From Lingula anatina (lineage: Eukaryota; Animalia; Brachiopoda): a stretch of 64,000 nucleotides of DNA. The stretch lies in the NCBI GenBank assembly GCA_051362555.1, contig CM120644.1, positions 3,914,954 through 3,978,953 on the forward strand. The letters run 5' to 3'. The translations under genes were made by a program, and so were the position numbers. Under the pieces are notes generated by a model. That model saw only the letters and a program-made list of their open reading frames with translations, had not been told where the DNA came from and did not search any database. Shown here one piece after another: positions 9,001-61,542 of the stretch (position 1 is the stretch's first letter; every line of letters starts with the position of its first letter).

Positions 9001-10177
9001 AAACCTTCAGGGTACCACTGGTTTAGGTCGTGTATCAAGGCATTCAGGTCCTGTTCCAGGGTTCTGGCGCCGTCTGCATATATCTGATCACTGTACGGGT
9101 AACTGGCGCCACTATAGTCTTCGTCGCCGTATTCTGCATAGTCATATTCATAGCCATAGTCATCTCCGTATTCAAGACTGAATAGAATGTTTGCTGTAGA
9201 ATTCAGGAATTTTTCGTCGTTTTCGGTTAGCAGCTCTTTTTTGTACCTGTGGCAAAATAGTATAAGGCTTAATTTGTGTGGAACGAGGCCGTTGCTTAGT
9301 TGTTTCAGACAAAGTTCGTCTAAATGTCACAGTCAGTGTTTATATTGTACAAGGTCGCATGCGCGCCTGTGATATTCACCACGACGCCATCTTTACCCAC
9401 CCAGTTTACGCACCACTGGTTCGTTGGCTGAATTACAATGGAGCTCATATCTAGCCCATTGCACCTTTCGGCTGAAACGCATTGACTCTCTTTTTTAATA
9501 TAATTGAGAGGTTTGCGGCCCCCCTATATTCAGTCATATATCTCCTTATGTCAATTTTGTTTGAATGTTCCATATATCACTATTGGAGAAATGAATATTT
9601 TAAAACTATAGAAATTGAGATATAAAATATAATTATTTCGGATTTCTTTCAAGCTCTTATATTCCCATTTCCCTCGAAGACGGTTTAAAAACTGGTAGAT
9701 TGTAATTGTCTCATTAGTTTTGGGTGAGATTTCCGTTTAAATTGCATTGCTGATTAAGGGGGGATTCTTTACATCAAAAGAAAAATCGATACAAATGCTT
9801 TTAAAAGGTCTAGCGAGATCTAGATGATTTTAATCTTCAAATATTATCTGATGGGTTACGTTATTTAAATGTACTCACTTGTTCGCATTACAAATAGTAA
9901 CCGCTGGAAATTGCAGCTTTTTCGGGAAAATCGTGCTCATCTTGGTGGTCGTGTCGTGTCTGAGAAAAGACAAAAAGCGGTCTCGAATATTGATGCTGGC
10001 TATAGAAAACCCAGCAAGGATTAACAACACCCAGAAAATCTTGAAAATCAGGTAACGGCTGCTGACCACCCGTGCGAATCCGTGAGCGGATGTGGACGAG
10101 GCGAAGTGGCCGAACGTTGCATCATCGTCCTCGCGGTCGTCGCTTTCTGACGCCTTTGGCGCACAGCAGCAACTCAT
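1..10177 (-). CDS. DEG/ENaC (ASIC-like) amiloride-sensitive sodium channel subunit; 5 coding exons, continues past the left edge
   Basis: Exons 10177-9879 (TSAHG pre-TM1 HG motif, TM1, FPAVTICN), 9246-8907 (..KGWTLNDENLMCSFRGFPC), 7746-7621 (FTQFGNCYTFN), 5962-5810 (AGIFFQVHSQFEPP..AVPPGFHAY) and 106-1 (EPPYGDC..YTMSGCVAEC). All introns are GT-AG with matching phases. Confidence 0.93.
1302..1790 (+). pseudogene. C-terminal remnant of a pogo-like transposase with a PHD-type zinc finger; no DDE domain seen
   Basis: SPAIIRPFPKA..RRKRCSAVLTDTP, a Lys-rich stretch, then WPCLVCGEP..WVKCIVCLKWSHEDC..YICQNCD, broken by stops and a frameshift. Confidence 0.7.
2062..4838. mobile_element. Helentron/DINE-1-like non-autonomous element nested in the pogo element
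   Basis: AACTAG start with small hairpin GAGGCG-ATAC-CGCCTC; 14-bp subterminal inverted repeat ATTGTACCACCAGC (2098-2111 / 4824-4837); terminal hairpin 4807-4834; GGAGCCGGC-type microsatellite 4730-4795; central tandem array. Confidence 0.65.
2265..3835. repeat. 146-bp tandem repeat, ~10.7 copies
   Basis: AGTAGGTCAAAGGTCA recurs at 2411, 2557 and onward every 146 bp; copies are near-identical. Confidence 0.95.
8060..8220. repeat. Interspersed repeat; diverged copy at ~60880-61025
   Basis: Shared text such as TGTTGATCCATCCTC..GAAGACCCAGAAGA.GG.CTCAATCC at both sites. Confidence 0.65.
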
Positions 10178-15700: not shown

Positions 15701-18029
15701 GGTTTTGGATATGTTGGTGAAAAGAGGAAATTGCCAAAATACTTTTTTTTTTTTTGGGGGGGGGGCTATACTGGGGTATAAAGGGCCAATTCCCACTGTA
15801 TGCCTTTTAACCTATAAAATAATAAATCTAAACATTATTTAATAAAAATACAATATTTATAAAATTATAATTAATAACTTTAACGATATAAAGAGGGTAC
15901 TTATATTGCTCATGGATTAGTCCCTATTTTAGTCTACAGTATTAACATTGGTCTCTTGCATAATGTCAGTCAAACTGAAGCTGAGAGTTTTTTGTTTTTT
16001 TTTTCATTTATGAAGTTACTGGATAATGTTTATACATATTTTGGCCAGATCTGTTCCACACAACCTACCAATGATCATCTTCAAGCAGTCACAGTTATCT
16101 TGTAACAGGTCCTCATGCTGGACATGAGTAGTCAAGTAGTGACGTGTTATCAGCGGGAAACGAATCCTTCCCAGAATGCTCTCCTTATGCTCGAACCTTG
16201 CTGGCAAATCATGCTTTAACCAGCGTATGGCAGCATCATACACCTGTAGGAAGAAGAAAAAGAATAATCAGAAAAATATAGTCTGATATAAGGTACAATA
16301 ACCAGACATCTTTTACATAAGAACAAGCTAATACCCAAGTGATCTCTTACCTACAATCTTTGTAAAAATTCAAAATTTTCAATTGCATGTCAATACTCAT
16401 TGCCATTCTCGCAAGATTTTCTAAGCCCATGTGACTAATATGACTTTTCTTCTGCATTTGGCTATGGCATTTATTTCATAAGGCCTTTAATATCTTTCCA
16501 CTGAATGAAATGAATTCCAATGAAATTAATCTTAAAACAGTTTATTTACCAAGGTCATAACAGACTTATTGATGGCTTTCACCTTTTAGCAGGCTTTGGT
16601 GAAATTGGCCTCAGGTCCAATATAAAAGCTTACCTCATCTTCGCATTTCACAGTCAATTCATCCTTAGACAACAAGTCAGTCACAGATTCTGGCCTCTGT
16701 TTCAGAAACTCCTCTCCCTGGCATACCTCTCTGAAAATGAGGCTCTAAATTAGACAACAAGGCTGGTACGTGTACAGACATCACAAATCTTGATAAAGAT
16801 AAAGCATATAATCAAGGAACTTTAAAATAGGTAAAATCATAGCAACACTTACTCAAACTGAAATAAAAATTTGGAATTGAAATCTGACTGACATTTCACA
16901 ATGTGTGAATAATGCAATGAGCTACAATACCAAATTCCATTTTCCTGACCACTGCCCTAGCCTGTTACAAAAACCAAAAACCCTAAATAATAAAATTGGG
17001 ACATTTTTTTACATTTTTTTCTTCACTATACTTACATACATTTGAACTAGAATTTAAACTATGAAGACTTTTTGTTAATCAATGAAGACCAAGTTAAAGT
17101 TTGGGCCAAAATAATGATTCACAAAAATAGTATTAAAACATTTAACTTAATCACTGTATTGAAAGTAAGAGACTGACAGTTTTATCTAAACAGCATATAC
17201 ACATATACAACATTTACCTAAAATGCAGATATGCAAAGTTACTGGCAGCTTCACACAGCTCAGGGCAGTTATGAAAATCTGCAAAGTCTTTAATCCCAAG
17301 GCAGTTTGCTGCACTCAGCTGCTGTGTTAGGTAATGGCAACATGCGTCTTTGATTGGCTGAATCTGGTAACGATTTCCAGCTGAGAGGAGCTCTTGAACA
17401 TTGGAATCATTCAACTGAATATCTGCAGTGTATGCAAAATCTATTATCGCCTCAACTGTTCCATGATAAATATCCTGCAGCTCGACCCTCGATGTTTGGG
17501 CCTCTGTCATATTGGACGTGAACATGGCATGAAAAAAGCTGCTGCAAGCTGCCAGCACTACCCTGTGTGCTTTAAACTCATGTCCCTCCACTATCAGAAT
17601 AACATCTGTCATCTCTTCTCTTTGCCTCATCCCGTTCATACAGCGAAAAAACTCTGCCTGTCTCTCTGAGATTCTAGCAACTGAACCATGGAATCCACCT
17701 TCATTATTAGTTCTATCATCCCCCAATAGGGGGCTCTGGGTGTCGCCACCACCTCTACGGGTCTGACCTAACCCCCCTGCCATAACCAATGCAGAAGAGA
17801 GTCTAGACGTCCCTCCAGATGTTCCTGCTCTGTCACCTATGGACACGTGTTGATTTGGTGTCCCTGTCGTGGTGCCACTCTCACTCATCCTCGACAGCAG
17901 TGGCTGGGACATGTGGTGATGGATTCCACCTCTCACAATTAAGCCTGTAATACTATATAAAGTTCTGCCTCTCAAAGGTCTCAAACTTGCTTCTATGGTT
18001 TCTTCTTCTTGGTCTGAACCATCTGTCAT
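12757..18029 (-). CDS. KLHL7: Kelch-like protein 7 (BTB-BACK-Kelch Cul3 adaptor), 9 coding exons, ~677 aa
   Basis: Exons 18029-17218, 16730-16634, 16243-16069, 15627-15478, 15154-14989, 14602-14523, 13974-13782, 13425-13328, 13019-12757 splice in frame. BTB FKAHRVVLAACS; BACK VYDAAIRWLKHD..IRFPLI; KLHL7-like PRRKKYDFQIACFGGS..CQYFNPK and C-terminal RLGNALEY..VDTC. Confidence 0.88.
14070..14137. repeat. 68-bp near-perfect spacerless palindrome in a KLHL7 intron
   Basis: CCCTAACGAAAAAGTCCTATAGGATCCTGTAAGA followed directly by its reverse complement with 2 mismatches. Confidence 0.9.
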
Positions 18030-21375: not shown

Positions 21376-21592
21376 TTAAGAACTTCACGAACTGATTACG
21401 ATTCAACCACGAATCCTAAAATTTGTCAGTTCCTGGCGATTCGTGGTCTGTGTGAAATAGGGGCATTAGGACTTGTGCTCTTTAAATATTCTCACATCCT
21501 GTAGGTCTAGTGTTAATATATATAGCATAAAACTCGCTTTGTTCTGACACTAGTAATTCGCATCTTTTCCCTTTTACCTCACCTTCGGCTAA

Positions 21593-22765
21593 TTATGCTT
21601 CATCGATCTCCTCCATCAAATCCTCCACTACGTCATTCAGGTCTTTACGAGACAGTTTGGACATGTCCAATTCGTCAGAGTCATCACGTGGGTCTGTCAG
21701 ATTTCTTAAAAAAAAGAAGAAAAAATAGATAGCAGATGAGCCTTAAAAATGATGATTATTTACGTATATGTGATCAGAAGCTTTATTTAGCTTTAGTATT
21801 AGCCTACAGCAAATGGCGTTCAAACCATTGATAGGGCCTATTAAAGATAAACTTCCATGGTTAAATTAAACGACATCGTTTTTATTCGCTGGACCTAACA
21901 AGTGGCAAAAATGACCTCTCTGTCTGATGACCACCGATAGCAGTGAAGATATCGCCAGAAGTCCGAGGGCTTCTCTGGACCTGCAAGGACACACCAATGA
22001 CCAATAGATCGTCCCGGTCCTCCACGCGTCCCTCAGATAGACTGGGGACAACTGAAATTACAGTGAAAAGTTTAGAGCCTGAATGATCCGTAATATGACA
22101 TAAATGTTGACATAAAATCTGATTTTGTATTTTATAATATATCACTTTCTTAAAGTTGGGTTGAGATAAATGTTTACTTCACATTAGGTTGACAAGAATA
22201 CTGAGATACTGACGAAAAGGTTTTATTTATAAAGACAGTTAACGGTAACCTTTATTCCCTCCTCCTCTGAACAAATTTGTTATCCTTTGACGGAGTCCAA
22301 ACTTCTGTTTTTTCTCTGAAATGAATCTTTACGAATTGCGCATAAATAAATCAAAAGAAAATACATTATTACAAGATATTATTCGGTAGAGCCTAATTGC
22401 AAACTAATGTTACTGCCATTTCGACCATTGAAAAGTCGTTAATTAAGCAGTCGTGATCAAAATCATAGTTTCTTTTTCATTTTTACCATTGTTCGGCTCC
22501 TCCCATGCTCCAAGATGGCTGTTAGAGACAACAGCTGTAATTAAAATAATGATGTTTATTACAACACATCCTATATTCGGGGGAAATGCCGAATACATGT
22601 ACCAAAAATTACTTGGCGCTTTTGATCCAGTTACCGTGATTTCTTTTACAAGTCAAAATAAAAATCAAATAAAATTACGGATGAAAAACGCCAACAAAAT
22701 TTAAACACTTTCAAAACGTTCAAGGAAACCACAATTTCATACTTACTAGATTGAGTGCATCCCAT
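21593..22765 (-). CDS. Small 110-aa putative N-myristoylated/palmitoylated protein, paralogue A (4 coding exons)
   Basis: Exons 22765-22747, 22315-22250, 22051-21916, 21704-21593 give MGCTQSKKKQKFGLRQRITNLFRGGGNKVVPSLSEGRVEDRDDLLVIGVSLQVQRSPRTSGDIFTAIGGHQTERNLTDPRDDSDELDMSKLSRKDLNDVVEDLMEEIDEA*. Frame and splice sites are conserved in paralogue B. Confidence 0.75.
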
Positions 22766-22857
22766 CGTATTCCTCTAAATTAAAACAACTTTGCAGCGCT
22801 AAGTCAGTGAATACTTTTCCGCTGTGCGAGAAAAGTGCATTATGGTACCGTAGCTAC

Positions 22858-22869
22858 TGTGACGTCACA
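22858..22869. promoter_or_regulatory. Full palindromic CRE (TGTGACGTCACA) ~95 bp upstream of the ATG of paralogue A
   Basis: TGACGTCA at 22860-22867, conserved at the equivalent position in paralogue B. Confidence 0.55.
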
Positions 22870-24337
22870 AAGTGAGGGCGCGTCTTGACAGCGACGATGT
22901 ACATTTCACTACCAAAGGGCGTTACGCCATAAATACGGGATAACTACACGAAAAATATTCTCATTTTCTATTAAAAAACTTGGTGTAGGCATTGAGGAAA
23001 TAAATTTCGAACAGTTCCAATATGAAAACAATAGTATAAGTTAACAATATACGTTTTAGCCAGACGGTAGCGTGCTTGGATGCAAATGAGGTACCCAAAG
23101 CGCCATCAACCATGGCAACGCAAAGTCACGAGTTCGAATCCCGGATGAGGCACGTCAGTCAATCACGACAACGACCGGGCCCCTGAATCGGGATGTCACG
23201 AGAACCAATCTGGGCTCTCGTGGGTCCTAGCAAATTACCTTTTGCATAAAAACACGGTATACTTTAGAAAGTTTACATTAAGTGATCGATTTAAAACGAA
23301 CATATTGCTGGTCATTAGAATAAAGTATCCGTCGTCAATAACATTTCCTTTCTCTTCAGTTAAAAGTACTTAGATTGGTGCCACAGATATTGCAATTAAA
23401 TTGGGCAAAATCTAACACCGAATGTACTGTATTGCATCTAAATGCCCTATCTTCTCGGTGGGATTATCAGAGAGAAATTTTTAATTGTTTAACAAAAGTC
23501 GCGTCGCCTCTGTTGTTTTTAACAAGCACACATTTTGTCTTTTCCTGCCCCTCCTTTCATTTCTTGCACCCTTGCTTCTCAAGACTGTTCATAATATGTT
23601 CATACAGTACCCGGGGGCAAGTCCGCAGTCGACATTTGAAGGAGTAAAGACTGCTCAATACTAAAACCGCCCAGGTGTGAACAGCTGTGGACCTCATTGT
23701 GCTGTATATCGTCAGGGGTGAAAGCAAACGTTATCTCAGCGCAAAACAAAATGAAAATAAAAGCATCTGAAGTCATCTAACTAGAAACGTTCCGAGCAGG
23801 CCTGTCGATGAAAGCCAAGGAATTTGAATTGATTCAGTAGTTTTTTTTAAAGTTAAAACAGCACGTCATACCATCTGTTAACCGTGTTCAGCAGAAAAAT
23901 GATATCTTCTCTGTGGAATTATTTGCAAAATGTGTTTTATTCAAAATTTCCATCGCTGCAATTGCTTATATGGAAATCGCACCAGTTACTAGACATTTGA
24001 ATGTTTTTTCCCTCTCTTCTTAGGGTCTCGCTAAAACTAAAAGACGCCTGTTGTGAGTGAACCGGCTTTGATCCCACTACATACTCTTTAATATCATGGG
24101 TAAAGCCAAAATTAATCTTAGGGTAAAACAAACTCTCAGTTCCGTGTTTTTGGTTCTCAAACACGCATGGCTTCCTGTACATCATGAATTTTACCGTTCA
24201 TGAACAGTCACTGTGCGTGGGATGAAATGCGACACCCGGATTATCGATCGGAGAAGCAGATATACACATGTACATCCAACTTGGCCCTGTCCGTGGCAAG
24301 TTTGAAAGTTTCCGTCCGATCATTGAGTAGTAACGAA

Positions 24338-24429
24338 GCTGGCGTGGCTCCGTGGTAACTTTGCTGTCTCGTGATAAGACAGAAACCGGTACGCTGGTTC
24401 GAGACTCAGGAAATGTAGTAATTTTTTTT
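24338..24429 (+). ncRNA. Vault-RNA-like Pol III gene (~90 nt); 10 copies (also 25789-25880 +, then 27249-27340 - and every ~1451 bp to ~37495)
   Basis: GCTGGCG-TGGCTCCGTGG(A box)-TAACTTTG, hairpin CTGTCT..AGACAG, GGTTCGAGAC (B box), then T8. Motif order resembles vertebrate vtRNA (GGCTGGC..TAGCTCAGCGGTTACTTCG..GTTCGAGACC..TTTT, recalled from memory). No tRNA D-stem. Confidence 0.45.
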
Positions 24430-24496
24430 CTCCAGAATTAAATCTAAAAAATTCCGATTGGTTACTATAAGAGGAAACTCGTACGTAGAGAGGGTG

Positions 24497-24697
24497 GGCG
24501 GGTCTGTCACGGCACAGTCGGTAGCGTGCTTGGATGCAAATGAGGTACCCAAAGCGCCCTCAACCATGGCAACGCAAAGTCACGAGTTCGAATCCCGGAT
24601 GAGGCACGTCAGTCAATCACGACAACGACCGGGCCCCTGAATCGGGATGTCACGAGAACCAATCTGGGCTCTCGTGGGTCCTAGCAAATTACCTTTT
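24497..24697 (+). ncRNA. ~200-nt structured Pol III-type RNA gene with a tRNA-like head; 10 full and 2 truncated copies in the array
   Basis: TATAA at 24466; A box CGGC(A/G)CAGTCGG; B box GAGTTCGAATCC; 5' GGGCGGGTCTGTC can pair with GACAACGACCGGGCCC; 3' hairpin CACGAG..CTCGTG; TTTT at 24694-24697. Confidence 0.5.
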
Positions 24698-27600
24698 GCA
24701 TAAAAACACGGTATACTTTAGAAAGTTTACATTAAGTGATCGATTTAAAACGAACATATTGCTGGTCATTAGAATAAAGTATCCGTCGTCAATAACATTT
24801 CCTTTCTCTTCAGTTAAAAGTACTTAGATTGGTGCCACAGATATTGCAATTAAATTGGGCAAAATCTAACACCGAATGTACTGTATTGCATCTAAATGCC
24901 CTATCTTCTCGGTGGGATTATCAGAGAGAAATTTTTTATTGTTTGACAAAAGTCGCGTCGCCTCTGTTGTTTTTAACAAGCACACATTTTGTCTTTTCCT
25001 GCCCCTCCTTTCATTTCTTGCACCCTTGCTTCTCAAGACTGTTCATAATATGTTCATACAGTACCCGGGGACAAGTCCGCAGTCGACATTTGAAGGAGTA
25101 AAGACTGCTCAATACTAAAACCGCCCAGGTGTGAACAGCTGTGGACCTCATTGTGCTGTATATCGTCAGGGGTGAAAGCAAACGTTATCTCAGCGCAAAA
25201 CAAAATGAAAATAAAAGCATCTGAAGTCATCTAACTAGAAACGTTCCGAGCAGGCCTGTCGATGAAAGCCAAGGAATTTGAATTGATTCAGTAGTTTTTT
25301 TTTAAGTTAAAACAGCACGACATACCATCTGTTAACCGTGTTCAGCAGAAAAATGATATCTTCTCTGTGGAATTATTTGCAAAATATGTTTTATTCAAAA
25401 TTTCCATCGCTGCAATTGCTTATATGGAAATCGCACCAGTTACTAGACATTTGAATGTTTTTTCCCTCTCTTCTTAGGGTCTCGCTAAAACTAAAAGACG
25501 CCTGTTGTGAGTGAACCGGCTTTGATCCCACTACATACTCTTTAATATCATGGGTAAAGCCAAAATTAATCTTAGGGTAAAACAAACTCTCAGTTCCGTG
25601 TTTTTGGTTCTCAAACACGCAAGGCTTCCTGTACATCATGAACTTTACCGTTCATGATAAACTGTGCGTGGGATGAAATGCGGCACCCGGATTATCGATC
25701 GGAGAAGCAGATATACACATGTACATTCAACTTGGCCCTGTCCGTGGCAAGGTTGAAAGTTTCCGTCCGATCATTGAGTAGTAACGAAGCTGGCGTGGCT
25801 CCGTGGTAACTTTGCTGTCTCGTGATCAGACAGAAACCGGTACGCTAGTTCGAGACTCAGGAAATGTAGTAATTTTTTTTCTCCAGAATTAAATCTAAAA
25901 AATTCCGATTGGTTACTATAAGAGGAAACTCGTACGTAGGGAGGGTGGGCGGGTCTGTCACGGCGCAGTCGGTAGCGTGCTTGGATGCAAATGAGGTACC
26001 CAAAGCGCCATCAACCATGGCAACGCAAAGTCACGAGTTCGAATCCCGGATGAGGCACGTCAGTCAATCACGACAACGACCGGGCCCCTGAATCGGGATG
26101 TCACGAGAACCAATCTGGGCTCTCGTGGGTCCTAGCAAATTACCTTTTGCATAAAAACACGGTATACTTTAGAAAGTTTACATTAAGTGATCGATTTAAA
26201 ACGAACATATTGCTGGTCATTAGAATAAAGTATCCGTCGTCAATAACATTTCCTTTCTCTTCAGTTAAAAGTACTTAGATTGGTGCCACAGATATTGCAA
26301 TTAAATTGGGCAAAATCTAACACCGAATGTACTGTATTGCATCTAAATGCCCATGAGTTCTCGGTGGGATTATCAGAGAGAAATTTTTTATTGTTTGACA
26401 AAAGTCGCGTCGCCTCTGTTGTTTTTAACAAGCACACATTTTGTCTTTTCCTGCCCCTCCTTTCATTTCTTGCACCCTTGCTTCTCAAGACTGTTCATAA
26501 TATGTTCATACAGTACCCGGGGGCAAGTCCACAGTCGACATTTGAAGGAGTAAAGACTGCTCAATACTAAAACCGCCCAGGTGTGAACAGCTGTGGACCT
26601 CATTGTGCTGTATATCGTCAGGGGTGAAAGCAAACGTTATCTCAGCGCAAAACAAAATGAAAATAAAAGCATCTGAAGTCATCTAACTAGAAACGTTCCG
26701 AGCAGGCCTGTCGATGAAAGCCAAGGAATTTGAATTGATTCAGTAGTTTCTCTCTGATAATCCCACCGAGAAGATAGGGCATTTAGATGCAATACAGTAC
26801 ATTCGGTGTTAGATTTTGCCCAATTTAATTGCAATATCTGTGGCACCAATCTAAGTACTTTTAACTGAAGAGAAAGGAAATGTTATTGACGACGGATACT
26901 TTATTCTAATGACCAGCAATATGTTCGTTTTAAATCGATCACTTAATGTAAACTTTCTAAAGTATACCGTGTTTTTATGCAAAAGGTAATTTGCTAGGAC
27001 CCACGAGAGCCCAGATTGGTTCTCGTGACATCCCGATTCAGGGGCCCGGTCGTTGTCGTGATTGACTGACGTGCCTCATCCGGGATTCGAACTCGTGACT
27101 TTGCGTTGCCATGGTTGATGGCGCTTTGGGTACCTCATTTGCATCCAAGCACGCTACCGACTGCGCCGTGACAGACCCGCCCACCCTCCCTACGTACGAG
27201 TTTCCTCTTATAGTAACCAATCGGAATTTTTTAGATTTAATTCTGGAGAAAAAAAATTACTACATTTCCTGAGTTTCGAACTAGCGTACCGGTTTCTGTC
27301 TGATCACGAGACAGCAAAGTTACCACGGAGCCACGCCAGCTTCGTTACTACTCAATGATCGGATGGAAACTTTCAACCTTGCCACGGACAGGGCCAAGTT
27401 GGATGTACATGTGTATATCTGCTTCTCCGATCGATAATCCGGGTGCCGCATTTCATCCCACGCACAGTTTATCATGAACGGTAAAATTCATGATGTACAG
27501 GAAGCCTTGCGTGTTTGAGAACCAAAAACACGGAACTGAGAGTTTGTTTTACCCTAAGATTAATTTTGGCTTTACCCATGATATTAAAGAGTATGTAGTG

Positions 27601-30600
27601 GGATCAAAGCCGGTTCACTCACAACAGGCGCCTTTTAGTTTTAGCGAGACCCTAAGAAGAGAGGGAAAAAACATTCAAATGTCTAGTAACTGGTGCGATT
27701 TCCATATAAGCAATTGCAGCGATGGAAATTTTGAATAAAACATATTTTGCAAATAATTCCACAGAGAAGATATCATTTTTCTGCTGAACACGGTTAACAG
27801 ATGGTATGACGTGCTGTTTTAACTTAAAAAACAACTACTGAATCAATTCAAATTCCTTGGCTTTCATCGACAGGCCTGCTCGGAACGTTTCTAGTTAGAT
27901 GACTTCAGATGCTTTTATTTTCATTTTGTTTTGCGCTGAGATAACGTTTGCTTTCACCCCTCACGATATACAGCACAATGAGGTCCACAGCTGTTCACAC
28001 CTGGGCGGTTTTAGTATTGAGCAGTCTTTACTCCTTCAAATGTCGACTGCGGACTTGTCCCCGGGTACTGTATGAACATATTATGAACAGTCTTGAGAAG
28101 CAAGGGTGCAAGAAATGAAAGGAGGGGCAGGAAAAGACAAAATGTGTGCTTGTTAAAAACAACAGAGGCGACGCGACTTTTGTTAAACAATTAAAAATTT
28201 CTCTCTGATAATCCCACCGAGAAGATAGGGCATTTAGATGCAATACAGTACATTCGGTGTTAGATTTTGCCCAATTTAATTGCAATATCTGTGGCACCAA
28301 TCTAAGTACTTTTAACTGAAGAGAAAGGAAATGTTATTGACGACGGATACTTTATTCTAATGACCAGCAATATGTTCGTTTTAAATCGATCACTTAATGT
28401 AAACTTTCTAAAGTATACCGTGTTTTTATGCAAAAGGTAATTTGCTAGGACCCACGAGAGCCCAGATTGGTTCTCGTGACATCCCGATTCAGGGGCCCGG
28501 TCGTTGTCGTGATTGACTGACGTGCCTCATCCGGGATTCGAACTCGTGACTTTGCGTTGCCATGGTTGATGGCGCTTTGGGTACCTCATTTGCATCCAAG
28601 CACGCTACCGACTGCGCCGTGACAGACCCGCCCACCCTCCCTACGTACGAGTTTCCTCTTATAGTAACCAATCGGAATTTTTTAGATTTAATTCTGGAGA
28701 AAAAAAATTACTACATTTCCTGAGTTTCGAACTAGCGTACCGGTTTCTGTCTGATCACGAGACAGCAAAGTTACCACGGAGCCACGCCAGCTTCGTTACT
28801 ACTCAATGATCGGATGGAAACTTTCAACCTTGCCACGGACAGGGCCAAGTTGGATGTACATGTGTATATCTGCTTCTCCGATCGATAATCCGGGTGCCGC
28901 ATTTCATCCCACGCACAGTTTATCAAGAACGGTAAAATTCATGATGTACAGGAAGCCTTGCGTGTTTGAGAACCAAAAACACGGAACTGAGAGTTTGTTT
29001 TACCCTAAGATTAATTTTGGCTTTACCCATGATATTAAAGAGTATGTAGTGGGATCAAAGCCGGTTCACTCACAACAGGCGCCTTTTAGTTTTAGCGAGA
29101 CCCTAAGAAGAGAGGGAAAAAACATTCAAATGTCTAGTAACTGGTGCGATTTCCATATAAGCAATTGCAGCGATGGAAATTTTGAATAAAACATATTTTG
29201 CAAATAATTCCACAGAGAAGATATCATGTTTCTGCTGAACACGGTTAACAGATGGTATGACGTGCTGTTTTAACTTAAAAAACAACTACTGAATCAATTC
29301 AAATTCGTTGGCTTTCATCGACAGGCCTGCTCGGAACGTTTCTAGTTAGATGACTTCAGATGCTTTTATTTTCATTTTGTTTTGCGCTGAGATAACGTTT
29401 GCTTTCACCCCTCACGATATACAGCACAATGAGGTCCACAGCTGTTCACACCTGGGCGGTTTTAGTATTGAGCAGTCTTTACTCCTTCAAATGTCGACTG
29501 CGGACTTGTCCCCGGGTACTGTATGAACATATTATGAACAGTCTTGAGAAGCAAGGGTGCAAGAAATGAAAGGAGGGGCAGGAAAAGACAAAATGTGTGC
29601 TTGTTAAAAACAACAGAGGCGACGCGACTTTTGTTAAACAATTAAAAATTTCTCTCTGATAATCCCACCGAGAAGATAGGGCATTTAGATGCAATACAGT
29701 ACATTCGGTGTTAGATTTTGCCCAATTTAATTGCAATATCTGTGGCACCAATCTAAGTACTTTTAACTGAAGAGAAAGGAAATGTTATTGACGACAGATA
29801 CTTTATTCTAATGACCAGCAATATGTTCGTTTTAAATCGATCACTTAATGTAAACTTTCTAAAGTATACCGTGTTTTTTATGCAAAAGGTAATTTGCTAG
29901 GACCCACGAGAGCCCAGATTGGTTCTCGTGACATCCCGATTCAGGGGCCCGGTCGTTGTCGTGATTGACTGACGTGCCTCATCCGGGACTGGAACTCGTG
30001 ACTTTGCGTTGCCATGGTTGATGGCGCTTTGGGTACCTCATTTGCATCCAAGCACGCTACCGACTGTGCCGTGACAGACCCGCCCACCCTACCTACGTAC
30101 GAGTTTCCTCATATATTAACCAATCGGATTTTTTTAGATTTAATTCTGGAGAAAAAAAATACCACATTTGCTGAGTCTCGAACCAGCGTTCCGGTTTTTG
30201 TCTGATCACGAGACAGCAAAGTTACCACGGAGCCACGCCAGCTTCGTTACTACTCAATGATCGGACGGAAACTTTCAACCTTGCCACGGACAGGGCCAAG
30301 TTGAATGTACATGTGTATATCTGCTTCTCCGATCGATAATCCGGGTGCCGCATTTCATCCCACGCACAGTTTATCATGAACGGTAAAATTCATGATGTAC
30401 AGGAAGCCTTGCGTGTTTGAGAACCAAAAACACGGAACTGAGAGTTTGTTTTACCCTAAGATTAATTTTGGCTTTACCCATGATATTAAAGAGTATGTAG
30501 TGGGATCAAAGCCGGTTCACTCACAACAGGCGTCTTTTAGTTTTAGCGAGACCCTAAGAAGAGAGGGAAAAAACATTCAAATGTCTAGTAACTGGTGCGA

Positions 30601-33600
30601 TTTCCATATAAGCAATTGCAGCGATGGAAATTTTGAATAAAACATATTTTGCAAATAATTCCACAGAGAAGATATCATGTTTCTGCTGAACACGGTTAAC
30701 AGATGGTATGACGTGCTGTTTTAACTTTAAAAAAAACTACTGAATCAATTCAAATTCCTTGGCTTTCATCGACAGGCCTGCTCGGAACGTTTCTAGTTAG
30801 ATGACTTCAGATGCTTTTATTTTCATTTTGTTTTGCGCTGAGATAACGTTTGCTTTCACCCCTGACGATATACAGCACAATGAGGTCCACAGCTGTTCAC
30901 ACCTGGGCGGTTTTAGTATTGAGCAGTCTTTACTCCTTCAAATGTCGACTGCGGACTTGCCCCCGGGTACTGTATGAACATATTATGAACAGTCTTGAGA
31001 AGCAAGGGTGCAAGAAATGAAAGGAGGGGCAGGAAAAGACAAAATGTGTGCTTGTTAAAAACAACAGAGGCGACGCGACTTTTGTCAAACAATAAAAAAA
31101 TTCTCTCTGATAATCCCACCGAGAAGATAGGGCATTTAGATGCAATACAGTACATTCGGTGTTAGATTTTGCCCAATTTAATTGCAATATCTGTGGCACC
31201 AATCTAAGTACTTTTAACTGAAGAGAAAGGAAATGTTATTGACGACGGATACTTTATTCTAATGACCAGCAATATGTTCGTTTTAAATCGATCACTTAAT
31301 GTAAACTTTCTAAAGTATACCGTGTTTTTATGCAAAAGGTAATTTGCTAGGACCCACGAGAGCCCAGATTGGTTCTCGTGACATCCCGATTCAGGGGCCC
31401 GGTCGTTGTCGTGATTGACTGACGTGCCTCATCCGGGATTCGAACTCGTGACTTTGCGTTGCCATGGTTGATGGCGCTTTGGGTACCTCATTTGCATCCA
31501 AGCACGCTACCGACTGCGCCGTGACAGACCCGCCCACCTTCCTACGTACGAGTTTCCTCTTATAGTAACCAATCGGAATTTTTTAGATTTAATTCTGGAG
31601 AAAAAAAATTACTACATTTCCTGAGTCTCGAACCAGCGTACCGGTTTCTGTCTGATCACGAGACAGCAAAGTTACCACGGAGCCACGCCAGCTTCGTTAC
31701 TACTCAATGATCGGACGGAAACTTTCAACCTTGCCACGGACAGGGCCAAGTTGGATGTACATGTGTATATCTGCTTCTCCGATCGATAATCCGGGTGCCG
31801 CATTTCATCCCACGCACAGTTTATCATGAACGGTAAAGTTCATGATGTACAGGAAGCCTTGCGTGTTTGAGAACCAAAAACACGGAACTGAGAGTTTGTT
31901 TTACCCTAAGATTAATTTTGGCTTTACCCATGATATTAAAGAGTATGTAGTGGGATCAAAGCCGGTTCACTCACAACAGGCGTCTTTTAGTTTTAGCGAG
32001 ACCCTAAGAAGAGAGGGAAAAAACATTCAAATGTCTAGTAACTGGTGCGATTTCCATATAAGCAATTGCAGCGATGGAAATTTTGAATAAAACATATTTT
32101 GCAAATAATTCCACAGAGAAGATATCATTTTTCTGCTGAACACGGTTAACAGATGGTATGTCGTGCTGTTTTAACTTAAAAAAAAACTACTGAATCAATT
32201 CAAATTCCTTGGCTTTCATCGACAGGCCTGCTCGGAACGTTTCTAGTTAGATGACTTCAGATGCTTTTATTTTCATTTTGTTTTGCGCTGAGATAACGTT
32301 TGCTTTCACCCCTGACGATATACAGCACAATGAGGTCCACAGCTGTTCACACCTGGGCGGTTTTAGTATTGAGCAGTCTTTACTCCTTCAAATGTCGACT
32401 GCGGACTTGCCCCCGGGTACTGTATGAACATATTATGAACAGTCTTGAGAAGCAAGGGTGCAAGAAATGAAAGGAGGGGCAGGAAAAGACAAAATGTGTG
32501 CTTGTTAAAAACAACAGAGGCGACGCGACTTTTGTTAAACAATTAAAAATTTCTCTCTGATAATCCCACCGAGAAGATAGGGCATTTAGATGCAATACAG
32601 TACATTCGGTGTTAGATTTTGCCCAATTTAATTGCAATATCTGTGGCACCAATCTAAGTACTTTTAACTGAAGAGAAAGGAAATGTTATTGACGACGGAT
32701 ACTTTATTCTAATGACCAGCAATATGTTCGTTTTAAATCGATCACTTAATGTAAACTTTCTAAAGTATACCGTGTTTTTATGCAAAAGGTAATTTGCTAG
32801 GACCCACGAGAGCCCAGATTGGTTCTCGTGACATCCCGATTCAGGGGCCCGGTCGTTGTCGTGATTGACTGACGTGCCTCATCCGGGACTCGAACTCGTG
32901 ACTTTGCGTTGCCATGGTTGATGGCGCTTTGAGTACCTCATTTGCATCCAAGCACGCTACCGACTGCGCCGTGACAGACCCGCCCACCCTACCTACGTAC
33001 GAGTTTCCTCTTATAGTAACCAATCGGAATTTTTTAGATTTAATTCTGGAGAAAAAAAATACCACATTTGCTGAGTCTCGAACCAGCGTACCGGTTTCTG
33101 TCTGATCACGAGACAGCAAAGTTACCACGGAGCCACGCCAGCTTCGTTACTACTCAATGATCGGACGGAAACTTTCAACCTTGCCACGGACAGGGCCAAG
33201 TTGAATGTACATGTGTATATCTGCTTCTCCGATCGATAATCCGGGTGCCGCATTTCATCCCACGCACAGTTTATCATGAACGGTAAAATTCATGATGTAC
33301 AGGAAGCCTTGCGTGTTTGAGAACCAAAAACACGGAACTGAGAGTTTGTTTTACCCTAAGATTAATTTTGGCTTTACCCATGATATTAAAGAGTATGTAG
33401 TGGGATCAAAGCCGGTTCACTCACAACAGGCGTCTTTTAGTTTTAGCGAGACCCTAAGAAGAGAGGGAAAAAAACATTCAAATGTCTAGTAACTGGTGCG
33501 ATTTCCATATAAGCAATTGCAGCGATGGAAATTTTGAATAAAACATATTTTGCAAATAATTCCACAGAGAAGATATCATGTTTCTGCTGAACACGGTTAA

Positions 33601-36600
33601 CAGATGGTATGACGTGCTGTTTTAACTTAAAAAAAAACTACTGAATCAATTCAAATTCCTTGGCTTTCATCGACAGGCCTGCTCGGAACGTTTCTAGTTA
33701 GATGACTTCAGATGCTTTTATTTTCATTTTGTTTTGCGCTGAGATAACGTTTGCTTTCACCCCTGACGATATACAGCACAATGAGGTCCACAGCTGTTCA
33801 CACCTGGGCGGTTTTAGTATTGAGCAGTCTTTACTCCTTCAAATGTCGACTGCGGACTTGCCCCCGGGTACTGTATGAACATATTATGAACAGTCTTGAG
33901 AAGCAAGGGTGCAAGAAATGAAAGGAGGGGCAGGAAAAGACAAAATGTGTGCTTGTTAAAAACAACAGAGGCGACGCGACTTTTGTCAAACAATAAAAAA
34001 TTTCTCTCTGATAATCCCACCGAGAAGATAGGGCATTTAGATGCAATACAGTACATTCGGTGTTAGATTTTGCCCAATTTAATTGCAATATCTGTGGCAC
34101 CAATCTAAGTACTTTTAACTGAAGAGAAAGGAAATGTTATTGACGACGGATACTTTATTCTAATGACCAGCAATATGTTCATTTTAAATCGATCACTTAA
34201 TGTAAACTTTCTAAAGTATACCGTGTTTTTATGCAAAAGGTAATTTGCTAGGACCCACGAGAGCCCAGATTGGTTCTCGTGACATCCCGATTCAGGGGCC
34301 CGGTCGTTGTCGTGATTGACTGACGTGCCTCATCCGGGATTCGAACTCGTGACTTTGCGTTGCCATGGTTGATGGCGCTTTGAGTACCTCATTTGCATCC
34401 AAGCACGCTACCGACTGCGCCGTGACAGACCCGACCACCCTCCCTACGTACGAGTTTCCTCTTATAGTAACCAATCGGAATTTTTTAGATTTAATTCTGG
34501 AGAAAAAAGTTACTACATTTCCTGAGTCTCGAACCAGCGTACCGGTTTCTGTCTGATCACGAGACAGCAAAGTTACCACGGAGACACACCAGCTTCGTTA
34601 CTACTCAATGATCGGATGGAAACTTTCAACCTTGCCACGGACAGGGCCAAGTTGGATGTACATGTGTATATCTGCTTCTCCGATCGATAATCCGGGTGCC
34701 GCATTTCATCCCACGCACAGTTTATCTTGAACGGTAAAATTCATGATGTACAGGAAGCCATGCGTGTTTGAGAACCAGAAACACGGAACTGAGAGTTTGT
34801 TTTACCCTAAGATTAATTTTGGCTTTACCCATGATATTAAAGAGTATGTAGTGGGATCAAAGCCGGTTCACTCACAACAGGCGTCTTTTAGTTTTAGCGA
34901 GACCCTAAGAAGAGAGGGAAAAAACATTCAAATGTCTAGTAACTGGTGCGATTTCCATATAAACAATTGCAGCGATGGAAATTTTGAATAAAACACATTT
35001 TGCAAATAATTCCACAGAGAAGATATCATTTTTCTGCTGAACACGGTTAACAGATGGTATGACGTGCTGTTTTAACTTAAAAAACAACTACTGAATCAAT
35101 TCAAATTCGTTGGCTTTCATCGACAGGCCTGCTCGGAACGTTTCTAGTTAGATGACTTCAGATGCTTTTATTTTCATTTTGTTTTGCGCTGAGATAACGT
35201 TTGCTTTCACCCCTCACGATATACAGCACAATGAGGTCCACAGCTGTTCACACCTGGGCGGTTTTAGTATTGAGCAGTCTTTACTCCTTCAAATGTCGAC
35301 TGCGGACTTGCCCCCGGGTACTGTATGAACATATTATGAACAGTCTTGAGAAGCAAGGGTGCAAGAAATGAAAGGAGGGGCAGGAAAAGACAAAATGTGT
35401 GCTTGTTAAAAACAACAGAGGCGACGCAACTTTTGTTAAACAATTAAAAATTTCTCTCTGATAATCCCACCGAGAAGATAGGGCATTTAGATGCAATACA
35501 GTACATTCGGTGTTAGATTTTGCCCAATTTAATTGCAATATCTGTGGCACCAATCTAAGTACTTTTAACTGAAGAGAAAGGAAATGTTATTGACGACGGA
35601 TACTTTATTCTAATGACCAGCAATATGTTCGTTTTAAATCGATCACTTAATGTAAACTTTCTAAAGTATACCGTGTTTTTATGCAAAAGGTAATTTGCTA
35701 GGACCCACGAGAGCCCAGATTGGTTCTCGTGACATCCCGATTCAGGGGCCCGGTCGTTGTCGTGATTGACTGACGTGCCTCATCCGGGATTCGAACTCGT
35801 GACTTTGCGTTGCCATGGTTGATGGCGCTTTGAGTACCTCATTTGCATCCAAGCACGCTACCGACTGCGCCGTGACAGACCCGCCCACCCTCCATACGTA
35901 CGAGTTTCCTCTTATAGTAACCAATCGGAATTTTTTAGATTTAATTCTGGAGAAAAAAATTACTACATTTCCTGAATCTCGAACCAGCGTACCGGTTTCT
36001 GTCTGATCACGAGACAGCAAAGTTACCACGGAGCCACGCCAGCTTCGATACTACTCAATGATCAGATGGAAACTTTCAACCTTGCCACGGACAGGGCCAA
36101 GTTGGATGTACATGTGTATATCTGCTTCTCCGATCGATAATCCGGGTGCCGCATTTCATCCCACGCACAGTTTATCATGAACGGTAAAATTCATGATGTA
36201 CAGGAAGCCATGCGTGTTTGAGAACCAAAAACACGGAACTGAGAGTTTGTTTTACCCTAAGATTAATTTTGGCTTTACCCATGATATTAAAGAGTATGTA
36301 GTGGGATCAAAGCCGGTTCACTCACAACAGGCGTCTTTTAGTTTTAGCGAGACCCTAAGAAGAGAGGGAAAAAACATTCAAATGTCTAGTAACTGGTGCG
36401 ATTTCCATATAAACAATTGCAGCGATGGAAATTTTGAATAAAACACATTTTGCAAATAATTCCACAGAGAAGATATCATTTTTCTGCTGAACACGGTTAA
36501 CAGATGGTATGACGTGCTGTTTTAACTTTAAAAAAAACTACTGAATCAATTCAAATTCCTTGGCTTTCATCGACAGGCCTGCTCGGAACGTTTCTAGTTA

Positions 36601-38775
36601 GATGACTTCAGATGCTTTTATTTTCATTTTGTTTTGCGCTGAGATAACGTTTGCTTTCACCCCTGACGATATACAGCACAATGAGGTCCACAGCTGTTCA
36701 CACCTGGGCGGTTTTAGTATTGAGCAGTCTTTACTCCTTCAAATGTCGACTGCGGACTTGCCCCCGGGTACTGTATGAACATATTATGAACAGTCTTGAG
36801 AAGCAAGGGTGCAAGAAATGAAAGGAGGGGCAGGAAAAGACAAAATGTGTGCTTGTTAAAAACAACAGAGGCGACGCAACTTTTGTTAAACAATTAAAAA
36901 TTTCTCTCTGATAATCCCACCGAGAAGATAGGGCATTTAGATGCAATACAGTACATTCGGTGTTAGATTTTGCCCAATTTAATTGCAATATCTGTGGCAC
37001 CAATCTAAGTACTTTTAACTGAAGAGAAAGGAAATGTTATTGACGACGGATACTTTATTCTAATGACCAGCAATATGTTCGTTTTAAATCGATCACTTAA
37101 TGTAAACTTTCTAAAGTATACCGTGTTTTTTATGCAAAAGGTAATTTGCTAGGACCCACGAGAGCCCAGATTGGTTCTCGTGACATCCCGATTCAGGGGC
37201 CCGGTCGTTGTCGTGATTGACTGACGTGCCTCATCCGGGACTCGAACTCGTGACTTTGCGTTGCCATGGTTGATGGCGCTTTGGGTACCTCATTTGCATC
37301 CAAGCACGCTACCGACTGTGCCGTGACAGACCCGCCCACCCTACCTACGTACGAGTTTCCTCATATAGTAACCAATCGGATTTTTTTAGATTTAATTCTG
37401 GAGAAAAAAAATACCACATTTGCTGAGTCTCGAACCAGCGTTCCGGTTTCTGTCTGATCACGAGACAGCAAAGTTACCACGGAGCCACGCCAGCTTCGTT
37501 ACTACTCAATGATCAGATGGAAACTTTCAACCTTGCCACGGACAGGGCCAAGTTGGATGTACATGTGTATATCTGCTTCTCCGATCGATAATCCGGGTGC
37601 CGCATTTCATCCCACGCACAGTTTATCATGAACGGTAAAATTCATGATGTACAGGAAGCCATGCGTGTTTGAGAACCAAAAACACGGAACTGAGAGTTTG
37701 TTTTACCCTAAGATTAATTTTGGCTTTACCCATGATATTAAAGAGTATGTAGTGGGATCAAAGCCGGTTCACTCACAACAGGCGTCTTTTAGTTTTAGCG
37801 AGACCCTAAGAAGAGAGGGAAAAAACATTCAAATGTCTAGTAACTGGTGCGATTTCCATATAAGCAATTGCAGCGATGGAAATTTTTGAATAAAACATAT
37901 TTTGCAAATAATTCCACAGAGAAGATATCATTTTTCTGCTGAACACGGTTAACAGATGGTATGACGTGCTGTTTTAACTTAAAAAAAAAAAACTACTGAA
38001 TCAATTAAAATTCCTTGGCTTTCATCGACAGGCCTGCTCGGAACGTTTCTAGTTAGATGACTTCAGATGCTTTTATTTTCATTTTGTTTTGCGCTGAGAT
38101 AACGTTTGCTTTCACCCCTGACGATATACAGCACAATGAGGTCCACAGCTGTTCACACCTGGGCGGTTTTAGTATTGAGCAGTCTTTACTCCTTCAAATG
38201 TCGACTGCGGACTTGCCCCCGGGTACTGTATGAACATATTATGAACAGTCTTGAGAAGCAAGGGTGCAAGAAATGAAAGGAGGGGCAGGAAAAGACAAAA
38301 TGTGTGCTTGTTAAAAACAACAGAGGCGACGCGACTTTTGTTAAACAATTAAAAATTTCTCTCTGATAATCCCACCGAGAAGATAGGGCATTTAGATGCA
38401 ATACAGTACATTCGGTGTTAGATTTTGCCCAATTTAATTGCAATATCTGTGGCACCAATCTAAGTACTTTTAACTGAAGAGAAAGGAAATGTTATTGACG
38501 ACGGATACTTTATTCTAATGACCAGCAATATGTTCGTTTTAAATCGATCACTTAATGTAAACTTTCTAAAGTATACCGTGTTTTTATGCAAAAGGTAATT
38601 TGCTAGGACCCACGAGAGCCCAGATTGGTTCTCGTGACATCCCGATTCAGGGGCCCGGTCGTTGTCGTGATTGACTGACGTGCCTCATCCGGGATTCGAA
38701 CTCGTGACTTTGCGTTGCCATGGTTGATGGCGCTTTGGGTACCTCATTTGCATCCAAGCACGCTACCGACTGCGC

Positions 38776-39699
38776 GAGTGCCTTCGTATTGGCCTCAATG
38801 CTTCTGCCTATGACATTTTGGAGAATGGGTCTATTTACACAAGCCATGAGGTTCATGATTCTACGGGAAACTTTTCTAATCCATACGTCAACCAAATAAA
38901 TAGCAATCTATCCGCTACTGAAGGAATCGTATCGGTGATATGCTTAGCCATAGCTTGTTAATGTATACTTATACGGATTGTCTTGCAGCCATGTGTTGCC
39001 GTCTTTCGGATGTTTCCAGGGAGGCTTCGATTTTGCCTCGTTTTTGTCCTCTTTATATCGAAAGTCCTCTTCCTAAGGAGATCATTTTTTCTTGGCAACG
39101 AAGTCGGATGCCAAATTATTGCTGTATTGTTCCACTAGAGTGTACTGTGTTCCTTTCTCTGGATGAACGCCATTGCAGTTGACATGACGTGGACATATGG
39201 CACGAAATCGTCACTGACTTCCGACTGATCTGCGGGGTCGAAAAAACGGTTCCACGCGTACTGTATCTACACCTCGCTTTGCTCCGGGTTGATTGTGGCC
39301 ACATGTCTTATTTTGGACTTTGTCGACATCAACGAAGACTTCCAAGCAAATTACGCGTCAGGTATTTGCTGGATTTCCAAGAAATACCCTCTTATTATAT
39401 TCATGGTGGCCCCAGTCGGCTTGATTATCCTTGTGAACCTGATACTTTTTACGATAGCCTCCCGAGCAATTCATGGCGCCATGAACAACGACAAAGAACT
39501 GAACTCTTCTAAAAATAAAAACCACCCCTTTTCCTTCTACGTGAAGTTGCTTACATTGATGGGAACACATTGGGTGTTTGGTTTTATTACCAGTTCGATG
39601 AGTGACCCAACAGTGTTCACTGTGTTTTGGTATATATTTATTGTCACAGCCACATTGGACGGTGCGTACATCTTTCTATCTACAGTGTACACCAAGTGA
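38776..39699 (+). pseudogene. Intronless Methuselah-like/family B (7tm_2) GPCR pseudogene, 5'-truncated
   Basis: One frame reads ECLRIGLNASAYDILENGSIY..TM1..GCQIIAVLFH*..FLWMNAIAVD..NYASGICWIS..PVGLIILVNLILF..YVKLLTLMGTHWVFGFI..LDGAYIFLS. In-frame stops at 38959, 39136 and 39226. Confidence 0.85.
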
Positions 39700-40468
39700 G
39701 AATGGAAGATTTGAGAAAAATTCAGATTGAAAACAAGCCGCCATGCTCTGGACTCTACACCCGTGTTCCTCGCCTCGTCAAAAAGGAGCAACGTAACGTC
39801 GAAGAGTAAAAGCGCATGAACAATGTATCTCTAATGTGAGAGTGATTACACAGATACTGAATCTGAAACTGTGGCGAAAACAGCTCACAAAACCTGCACT
39901 TTGAACGGAGAGGTATGCTGAAATCCCAGAAACAATAAAAAAACGTACCAAGAACAGTTCACAGGACGTTTTGTCTCTTATTTTTCTAGTAATATATCTT
40001 AATGTATTATATTTGACACCTAAAAAGCATACTGTCATTCTATATTTAAACTGTTTTCTAGAAAATCTTTTTCACAGAAAAATACCATTTAGGTAACTAG
40101 CAGAACTGTACTTTGCCTGCTAACTGTTTCAAACTGGGGAGACCACACAAGTTGTCCCAGGCGCCATTTGAAAGGGGCGTCACTGACAGGTTTTACAGGC
40201 CTTAACTTATTGGTAGTCATTATCCCCATATGGAAATGTCTTTATTATATTATATCATTACTTAATAGTAAATGCATCTATAATTTTATTTCTATTGTAC
40301 ATTTCCATCTACCCATGTGTATGTATACGTTACAATGAATAAATCATTTAAGCATCTTATTTGAAATGTGTGGCTTGACAGAGGCGCCGTTTTGAATTCC
40401 CTGGCCGGTATATTAAAAGATAAAATTAACGTAATTTATTGGGCCATAGCCGAGTAGGGTACATGTAG

Positions 40469-61497: not shown

Positions 61498-61542
61498 TAT
61501 AATTCCAATGAAGATGCTATTCAAACATTTAATCTTCCAGTT

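What the first reader, a model, noticed from the sequence alone, without database searches (positions are those of the whole stretch)
24457..24697. Second, unrecognised ~200-nt structured Pol III RNA cassette paired with the vault-like gene in every unit
Seen: ~70 bp after the first terminator come ATTGG and TATAA, then an A box forming a tRNA-like D-arm (GCGC-AGTCGGTA-GCGT), a long hairpin (GCG..TTGGATGC/GTACCCAA..CGC), B box GAGTTCGAATCC, a closing stem between the 5' end and 24620-24636, a 3' hairpin and TTTT. The acceptor and T stems do not pair as in a real tRNA. Inference: the unit is a two-gene Pol III ncRNA module maintained by concerted evolution, like 5S or snRNA arrays, but it matches no family I recognise. 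This is the best candidate for an undescribed system in the window.
Basis: partly seen in the sequence, partly recalled or inferred. Interest (0 to 1): 0.8.

Follow-up and report, generated by a model that had tools for sequence, protein, structure and literature searches.

The report
Roving repeat with tRNA-like promoters
In the lamp shell Lingula, the flagged 200-base stretch is a tRNA-like cassette with polymerase III promoter signals, present in every 1.45-kb unit of an abundant tandem repeat that here abuts a truncated gene, and it is likely a passenger of a mobile repeat rather than a new working RNA gene.

Summary
The motifs are real: TATA, A box, B box, 3' hairpin and TTTT, in 10 whole and 2 truncated copies of a 1,451-bp unit (array 23061-38775). 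The host is Lingula (98% protein match). No Rfam family or tRNA matches. A selected, structured ncRNA is not supported: the fold is no better than shuffles (z 0.29), the copies show no covariation, the cassette varies as much as the spacer (6/202 vs 36/1118 columns), and only 80 reads of about 41 million records map, none 99% identical, mostly probably antisense. Three DNA runs show the whole unit, spacer included, as an abundant, diverged tandem family; the 'vault-like' partner is its least represented part. The array folds back on itself, cuts a GPCR gene, and both outer ends fall in this cassette's A box, a geometry like Penelope-type insertions. Best reading: an OAX-type Pol III tandem repeat that moves in blocks. 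A functional RNA family remains possible, because other subfamilies appear to keep two stems while loops change. The scan noted similar repeats in two other genomes.

The parts
23061..38775 (.). Fold-back tandem array of a ~1,451-bp unit, about 10.8 units; whole units differ by 6-31 substitutions
23061..26749 (+). Left arm, about 2.5 units; begins inside the A box of cassette 2 (unit position equal to 24512-24515)
26747..38775 (-). Right arm, about 8.3 units; its outer end lies inside the A box of cassette 2 (equal to 24512, at most 2 bases of overlap with the host gene)
26747..26749 (.). Inner junction of the two arms, 3-bp microhomology (TTT), joining unit positions equal to 23843 and about 24931
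24457..24470 (+). ATTGG and TATAA upstream of cassette 2
   Evidence: 24465 and 24470 vary among copies
24496..24697 (+). Cassette 2, the flagged element; start inferred from the TATA distance, end at TTTT
24510..24521 (+). A box / D-arm-like segment (tRNA nt 8-19); both array ends fall in nt 10-13
24529..24553 (+). Anticodon-arm-like hairpin with a 14-nt interior; outer stem pairs in the same register in a diverged transcribed copy
24578..24598 (+). Variable-loop/T-arm segment with B box (24584-24595); nearly identical to the heads of gastropod tRNA-derived SINEs
24644..24682 (+). 3' hairpin, the only part folding better than shuffles
24335..24429 (+). Cassette 1 ('vault-like'): A box 24345-24355, B box 24396-24406, T8 run; most variable part of the unit
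38776..39813 (+). 3' part of an adhesion-GPCR-like gene with in-frame stops; begins exactly at the array end (residue 617 of a 995-aa Lingula paralogue); the 5' part is absent from the window
21545..23022 (.). Left flank: segment duplicated at 42409-43837 (79% identical); unrelated to the right flank, no target-site duplication

Best explanation
The cassette is a tRNA-like A-box/B-box unit with a T terminator that sits in every copy of an abundant 1.45-kb Lingula tandem repeat, and it is likely a decayed tRNA-derived promoter carried by a selfish repeat (OAX / PolIII-satellite type) that likely seeds new sites in blocks, most probably by Penelope-style retro-insertion. Shown: the motifs, the array, its mosaic copies, many diverged tandem subfamilies in three DNA runs, the fold-back, the two ends in the A box, the truncated GPCR gene, no target duplication. 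Inferred: (1) tRNA origin, with insertions in the anticodon and variable arms; (2) homogenisation by unequal exchange within arrays; (3) this block was copied from a larger mixed array, because both arms share polymorphisms; (4) the copying was primed twice, once from each side of a break, on a long read-through RNA antisense to the cassettes whose 3' end lies in the A box, and the two products were joined by 3-bp microhomology. I put step 4 at about 55:45 against DNA-level capture during break repair. Any Pol III transcript would be about 200 nt and is not needed for this route.
For: Whole unit, spacer included, is covered in 30 of 30 bins in each of three runs of the species, by 878, 1426 and 1292 contigs, about 60-70% of them under 95% identical; head-to-tail joints occur in diverged forms; only 3-6% of contigs run on into unlike sequence. 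Cassette 2 varies like spacer inside the array (6/202 vs 36/1118, p 1.0); B-box or A-box letters are changed in single copies. Fold z 0.29; 0 of 67 predicted pairs covary in 10 copies (little power at 98-99% identity). RNA: 80 reads of about 41 million records in 4 runs, 0 at 99%+, spread over spacer and both cassettes with no peak, first mate mostly on +. Right end cuts a GPCR coding sequence. Both outer ends within 4 bases of the same unit position (chance about 7/1451). Inverted truncated copy, multi-copy head-to-tail units and inverted repeats flanking the whole insertion are described for Penelope-like elements, including non-autonomous ones and clades without hammerheads (PMC8557442, passages). 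No column separates the two arms. Letters private to this array are nearly absent in run X1 (for example 0 of 4745 at 24043) but present in X3 (745 of 12040), a hint of fast turnover.
Against: Cassette 2 is 3.3-3.9 times better represented than spacer in all three runs, which fits selection as well as 3'-end bias. Two diverged variants keep a stem while the loop or register changes. The RNA test is weak: poly(A), oligo-dT or unspecified libraries, 6-25% of each run read, 92% identity cut-off that excludes many subfamilies, strandedness not controlled. No autonomous partner, no hammerhead core, no 30-40-bp tail; depth shows no sharp edge at the A box genome-wide (34,719 at 24514 vs 30,563 at 24488 in X1; no common start or end listed). 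A 12-kb arm is long for one reverse-transcription event. The mechanism rests on two ends at one locus; the whole genome was not held.
Confidence: 0.5

Rival explanations
1. A functional multigene family of Pol III RNAs: promoter boxes, outer stems and 3' hairpin are kept by selection while internal segments are exchangeable (guide-like or decoy-like, as paired viral EBER/VA RNAs are recalled to be); this array would be a displaced block of it.
For: Two A/B-box cassettes per unit in 0 of 3000 shuffles. Cassette 2 bins rank 1-12 of 30 in three runs. Joints 24540->24643/24669 and 24360->24448/24458 show subfamilies that keep the cassette ends but not the middles. A transcribed variant pairs 6 of 6 positions at 24529-34/24548-53 in the same register with a different interior (from tables 3 and 7; my reading of a 3-4-read consensus). 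A DNA variant keeps a perfect 6-bp 3' stem after an apparent 5-nt duplication, with a similar loop motif (table 7).
Against: No purifying selection within the array, partner cassette hypervariable; no Rfam hit; z 0.29; no sense-strand peak; a spacer block (23637-23783) is also highly represented; the second organism's run holds only 7 contigs at depth 2-3.6, likely carry-over.
Confidence: 0.25
2. Same repeat, but the ends were made at DNA level by a nuclease aimed at the A box, such as a Dada transposase, and the broken array was captured here by repair.
For: Dada families insert at tRNA nt 8-13, with TGGCGC as target of Dada-tN and -tR (PMC8869645, passages); the cassette reads CGGCGC there and both ends fall in nt 10-13.
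Against: No transposon sequence at the right end, which abuts host coding sequence directly; left flank is a different sequence; Dada in Lingula not tested; needs extra steps.
Confidence: 0.1
3. An ordinary dispersed tRNA-derived SINE that was locally amplified with its flanks.
For: The 21-nt segment 24578-24598 matches gastropod SINE heads at all but 1-2 letters (PMC4758252 supplement passage); cassette 2 is over-represented.
Against: No copy outside the array in the window (best nhmmer E 8.4); no A-rich or repeat tail; no shared start or end among contigs, 3-6% run into unlike flanks, spacer is itself high-copy.
Confidence: 0.08
4. A tandem array of a Helenus-type mini LTR element, with the purine tract before TGTCA as polypurine tract or the A box read as a tRNA-Ser primer site.
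For: Lingula has three Helenus families with tRNA-like LTRs (PMC10886601, parts 2-3 and supplement). The likeness of the A box to a tRNA-Ser primer site is recalled, not tested.
Against: Array ends are not TG..CA and carry no 4-bp duplication; 4 cassette motifs had 0 hits in the Helenus/Ajax supplement; Helenus-1_LAn is 323 bp against 1,451.
Confidence: 0.04

Closest known systems
Amphibian tRNA-like tandem repeats: Xenopus OAX / satellite I, newt PolIII/TAN, Rana/polIII, Hy/polIII (as described in PMC10702118 and PMC12054243, passages; the OAX paper itself was not held)
   Same: Abundant head-to-tail repeat with a tRNA-like segment inside the unit, no matching dispersed SINE, function unproven.
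   Different: Unit longer (1,451 bp against about 200-360 nt for three of them), two cassettes per unit, invertebrate host, fold-back block in gene-rich DNA; Pol III transcription shown for some of those, not here.
Non-autonomous Penelope-like elements (e.g. MRC1 of the Chlamys clade) and Naiad insertions (PMC8557442, passages)
   Same: Multi-copy head-to-tail units, inverted truncated copy, inverted repeats flanking the whole insertion, no canonical hammerhead.
   Different: No partner or 3'-end similarity to an autonomous element shown, no tail; carries Pol III promoters that face away from the inferred template strand.
Schistosome Sm-alpha SINE-like repeats and newt satellite 2 (PMC6765202, passages)
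   Same: Tandem repeat with a tRNA-derived Pol III promoter (Sm-alpha).
   Different: No hammerhead core found; 9 runs of 4 or more T per unit on the sense strand argue against multimeric Pol III transcripts.
tRNA-derived SINE heads of gastropods (Nla_2, Lsa_3; PMC4758252 supplement passage)
   Same: Near-identical variable-loop/T-arm segment with the B box.
   Different: A-B spacing extended by insertions, internal terminator, no tail, arrayed with 1.2 kb of other sequence.
Helenus TRIMs of Lingula (PMC10886601)
   Same: Same host, tRNA-like A and B boxes in a mobile repeat.
   Different: No LTR ends, no 4-bp duplication, no sequence match, over four times longer.

Membership tests
tRNA gene | Cloverleaf with paired acceptor and T stems, scored by ARAGORN or Rfam RF00005 | tested here: not met
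   ARAGORN 0 genes; with introns allowed nothing at 90% threshold, and at 80% only a different, noise-level fold among 88 calls; no tRNA hit at E<=10
Type-2 Pol III transcription unit | A box, B box, downstream T run | tested here: met
   T8 of the A box is C in all copies, terminator only T4
Type-2 Pol III transcription unit | Discrete sense transcript | tested here: inconclusive
   No peak, reads diverged and mostly probably antisense; libraries and 92% cut-off poorly suited
Vault RNA (cassette 1) | Match to the Rfam vault model; terminal stem enclosing both boxes | tested here: not met
   No hit at E<=10; in the predicted fold the 5' end pairs before the B box; z 0.46. Divergent invertebrate vault RNAs can escape such searches (PMC2770079, passages)
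OAX-type tRNA-like tandem repeat | Abundant head-to-tail repeat with internal tRNA-like segment | tested here: met
OAX-type tRNA-like tandem repeat | Transcribed by Pol III in vitro or in oocytes | not testable with these tools
   needs extract transcription or staged small-RNA data
tRNA-derived SINE | Dispersed solo copies with tail and target-site duplication | tested here: not met
   none in the window; no common ends among contigs, 3-6% run on unlike; genome not held, 706 loose ends not shown
Non-autonomous Penelope-like element | Tandem plus inverted truncated copy with matching outer ends | tested here: met
   if the template strand is antisense to the cassettes; one locus only
Non-autonomous Penelope-like element | 3'-end similarity to an autonomous PLE; tail extension | not testable with these tools
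   no Lingula genome or Repbase on hand; no tail seen at the two ends
Hammerhead retrozyme / Sm-alpha type | Hammerhead core in the unit | tested here: not met
   0 cores on either strand with one substitution allowed; no Rfam ribozyme hit
Helenus (TRIM with tRNA-like LTR) | TG..CA LTRs, PBS, PPT, 4-bp duplication | tested here: not met
Dada target site | Dada termini and 6-bp duplication at nt 8-13 | tested here: not met
   position fits but right flank is host coding sequence

The most novel reading that the evidence does not exclude
A brachiopod family of paired Pol III RNAs with a conserved tRNA-like scaffold and 3' hairpin but exchangeable middles, encoded in mobile arrays that re-insert in blocks from a fixed point in the A box: a small-RNA gene array that is itself a Penelope-type passenger, diversifying guide or decoy RNAs in an invertebrate.
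Probability: 0.12. Interest if true: 0.75.

Novelty: new variant of a known kind. Interest (0 to 1): 0.36.

Why it matters
How tRNA-like satellites such as OAX arise and spread is open: the reviews read say their link to SINEs is unconfirmed. Here one locus shows a block with both ends at the same nucleotides of the A box, which gives a direct genome-wide test of whether such repeats move by a Penelope-style route or by a nuclease aimed at Pol III promoters. If the subfamilies prove to conserve structure and to be expressed, it would instead be an undescribed Pol III RNA family in a phylum whose small RNAs are poorly catalogued. As it stands it is an unannotated repeat with one odd feature.

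Tried and rejected
Whole genome: not held, so arrayed-versus-dispersed was judged from contigs laid on one unit. Run search: no RNA holder listed; not used as evidence. Run X10 (second organism): 7 contigs at depth 2-3.6 with the first organism's variant letters; not taken as cross-species conservation. Pattern scans: 0 in viral contigs; 1 in metagenome contigs, a chance match in unrelated sequence. Rfam: 0 at gathering score in 64 kb; only chance hits at E<=10. Hidden coding frame in the spacer: no long open frame; positions of 39 majority differences fall 14/17/8 by codon position, no signal. HDV-like, twister, RNase MRP/P, 7SK and Y RNA likenesses were considered by eye from recalled motifs and dropped: topology did not fit and Rfam gave nothing. 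An RT stop at a methylated G9 on the sense RNA would put ends at nt 10, but 9 T runs per unit make multi-unit Pol III templates unlikely. Cassette 1 versus cassette 2: no convincing alignment. Supplement searches for cassette motifs: 0 in PMC5786205, 0 for four motifs in PMC10886601, only the B-box motif in PMC4758252, whose file 1 could not be searched. Scan index by sequence and by relatives: nothing. OAX paper not held.

Full report
Host and setting. A BTB-kelch exon at 17214-18029 is 98% identical to a Lingula anatina protein, and two other window proteins have Lingula best hits, so the window is from a Lingula brachiopod. No whole genome was held.

The observation. The A-box/B-box pair is not chance: 17 relaxed matches in the window, all in the array; two pairs per unit in 0 of 3000 shuffles. 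The structure claim is weaker. The 216-nt RNA folds at z 0.29, with 129 of 200 shuffles as stable. Of 6 sub-windows only the 3' hairpin beats shuffles (z -2.85). In an intact copy the closing stem has pair probabilities of 0.54-0.87 and the 3' hairpin up to 1.0, but the D-arm only 0.1. RNAalifold on the 10 whole copies finds 0 of 67 pairs with a double change, which says little at 98-99% identity. ARAGORN and Rfam give nothing. A tRNA origin is still likely: the segment around the B box matches gastropod tRNA-derived SINE heads at all but 1-2 of 21 letters (PMC4758252, supplement passage).

The array. BLAST shows about 10.8 units of 1,451 bp from 23061 to 38775: a + arm of about 2.5 units and a - arm of about 8.3 units, joined by a 3-bp microhomology. 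Both outer ends lie in the A box of the flagged cassette, at tRNA positions 10-13; two random ends would fall this close about 0.5% of the time. The right end abuts an adhesion-GPCR-like coding sequence exactly at residue 617 of a 995-residue paralogue, and the first 616 residues have no match in the window. The left flank is an unrelated duplicated segment; there is no target-site duplication. Whole units differ by 6-31 substitutions, are mosaics (166 of 435 site pairs incompatible) and no column separates the arms, so both arms come from one mixed pool.

Selection inside the array. Variable columns: cassette 2, 6 of 202; spacer, 36 of 1118 (p 1.0); cassette 1, 10 of 86 (p 0.001, more variable); upstream element region 7 of 44. 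Single copies carry changes in conserved box positions. This gives no sign that the cassettes are protected.

Genome-wide view. Laying contigs of 4 DNA runs on one unit at 80% identity: 878, 1426 and 1292 contigs for three runs of the species, covering 30 of 30 bins, mostly under 95% identical; head-to-tail joints in diverged forms; 3-6% run on into unlike sequence; no common start or end. Summed depth at 24514 is 34,719 in X1 against about 26 for lone contigs, which suggests hundreds of copies, though the tool warns that this is no copy number. Cassette 2 is 3.3-3.9 times better represented than spacer and 7-20 times better than cassette 1. Joints show subfamilies in which the middle of either cassette cannot be aligned while its ends can. 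Only 40 of 265 differences, 15 of 81 joints and 25 of 731 loose ends were shown, so this view is partial. The second organism's 7 low-depth contigs were not counted as conservation.

RNA. Four RNA runs (2 unspecified, 1 poly(A), 1 oligo-dT; 6-25% of each read; 92% cut-off) gave 80 reads of about 41 million records: 0 at 99%+, 25 at 95-99%, 55 at 90-95%. They cover spacer and cassettes alike at depth under 15, at most 5 on cassette 2, with the first mate mostly on +, which in common stranded libraries means RNA antisense to the cassettes (not controlled). This looks like read-through over diverged copies. It does not exclude a short non-polyadenylated RNA.

Evidence for the other side. Two variants keep structure. 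In reads of X14 and X15 the stem 24529-34/24548-53 pairs at 6 of 6 positions in the same register although the interior and the sequence beyond differ (my reading, tables 3 and 7; 3-4 reads per run). In contigs of X1 and X6 the 3' hairpin keeps a perfect 6-bp stem after an apparent short duplication, with a similar loop (table 7). With the over-representation of cassette 2, this keeps a functional RNA family alive at about 0.25.

Mechanism. I commit to a selfish tRNA-like tandem repeat that spreads in blocks. Its geometry (multi-copy head-to-tail run, inverted truncated partner, identical outer ends) is that described for Penelope-like elements, including non-autonomous ones and clades without hammerheads (PMC8557442, passages), if the template is a long RNA antisense to the cassettes ending in the A box. 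No hammerhead core was found, no partner could be searched, and depth shows no sharp genome-wide edge at the A box, so this step is an inference from one locus. The same nucleotides 8-13 are the target of several Dada transposon families (PMC8869645, part 2 of 5 and passages; PMC3706591, passages), but no Dada end is present. Helenus, known from Lingula (PMC10886601, parts 2-3 of 6 and supplement passages), fails on ends, length and sequence.

Comparison and novelty. The nearest kind is the amphibian tRNA-like tandem repeats OAX/satellite I, PolIII/TAN, Rana/polIII and Hy/polIII (PMC10702118 and PMC12054243, passages); Sm-alpha is related in layout but has a hammerhead (PMC6765202, passages). 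Nine paper searches (listings and abstract starts only unless named above) showed no description of this Lingula repeat; Repbase and Dfam could not be searched, and most subscription papers are not held. Two earlier notes of this scan describe similar repeats in other genomes; they are unchecked leads. Verdict: real motifs, ordinary class, new variant, with one testable oddity (both ends in the A box). Interest 0.36.

Noticed in passing
window 24335-24495: Cassette 1 and the upstream region of cassette 2 are three to five times more variable among copies than the rest of the unit (17 of 130 columns), with linked variant sets shared by non-adjacent units, perhaps conversion from other subfamilies.
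   Followed up: partly
window 23637-23783 (and equivalents in each unit): A block in the spacer is as well represented genome-wide as parts of cassette 2; no open frame or Rfam hit explains it.
   Followed up: partly
window 38776-39813: Adhesion-GPCR-like 7TM gene with several in-frame stops, 59% identical to a Lingula paralogue, 5' part missing.
   Followed up: yes
window 44584-45776, 51241-52224, 55556-56554: Three intronless histidine N-acetyltransferase-like open frames or fragments in a cluster; the one searched had a single database hit, a Lingula protein at 41%.
   Followed up: partly
window 21545-23022 and 42409-43837: Duplicated segment (79%) on both sides of the array region, with short exon-like conserved blocks on the - strand and a TGACGTCA motif near its end; host gene or transposon not determined.
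   Followed up: partly
window 2268-3837; 52700-55000; 59200-64000: Tandem arrays of 146-bp and 159-161-bp units inside dispersed repeats; resemblance to Helentron-borne arrays of bivalves is recalled, not tested.
   Followed up: no
loose end at 24657 versus PMC10886601 supplement: A variant 3' end of cassette 2 shares a 12-letter word with the internal part of a sturgeon Helenus element seen in a supplement passage; probably chance.
   Followed up: no
window 8781-9326 (-): Exon that looks like a DEG/ENaC channel segment with a Tyr/Asp-rich insert (label recalled from motifs, not tested).
   Followed up: no
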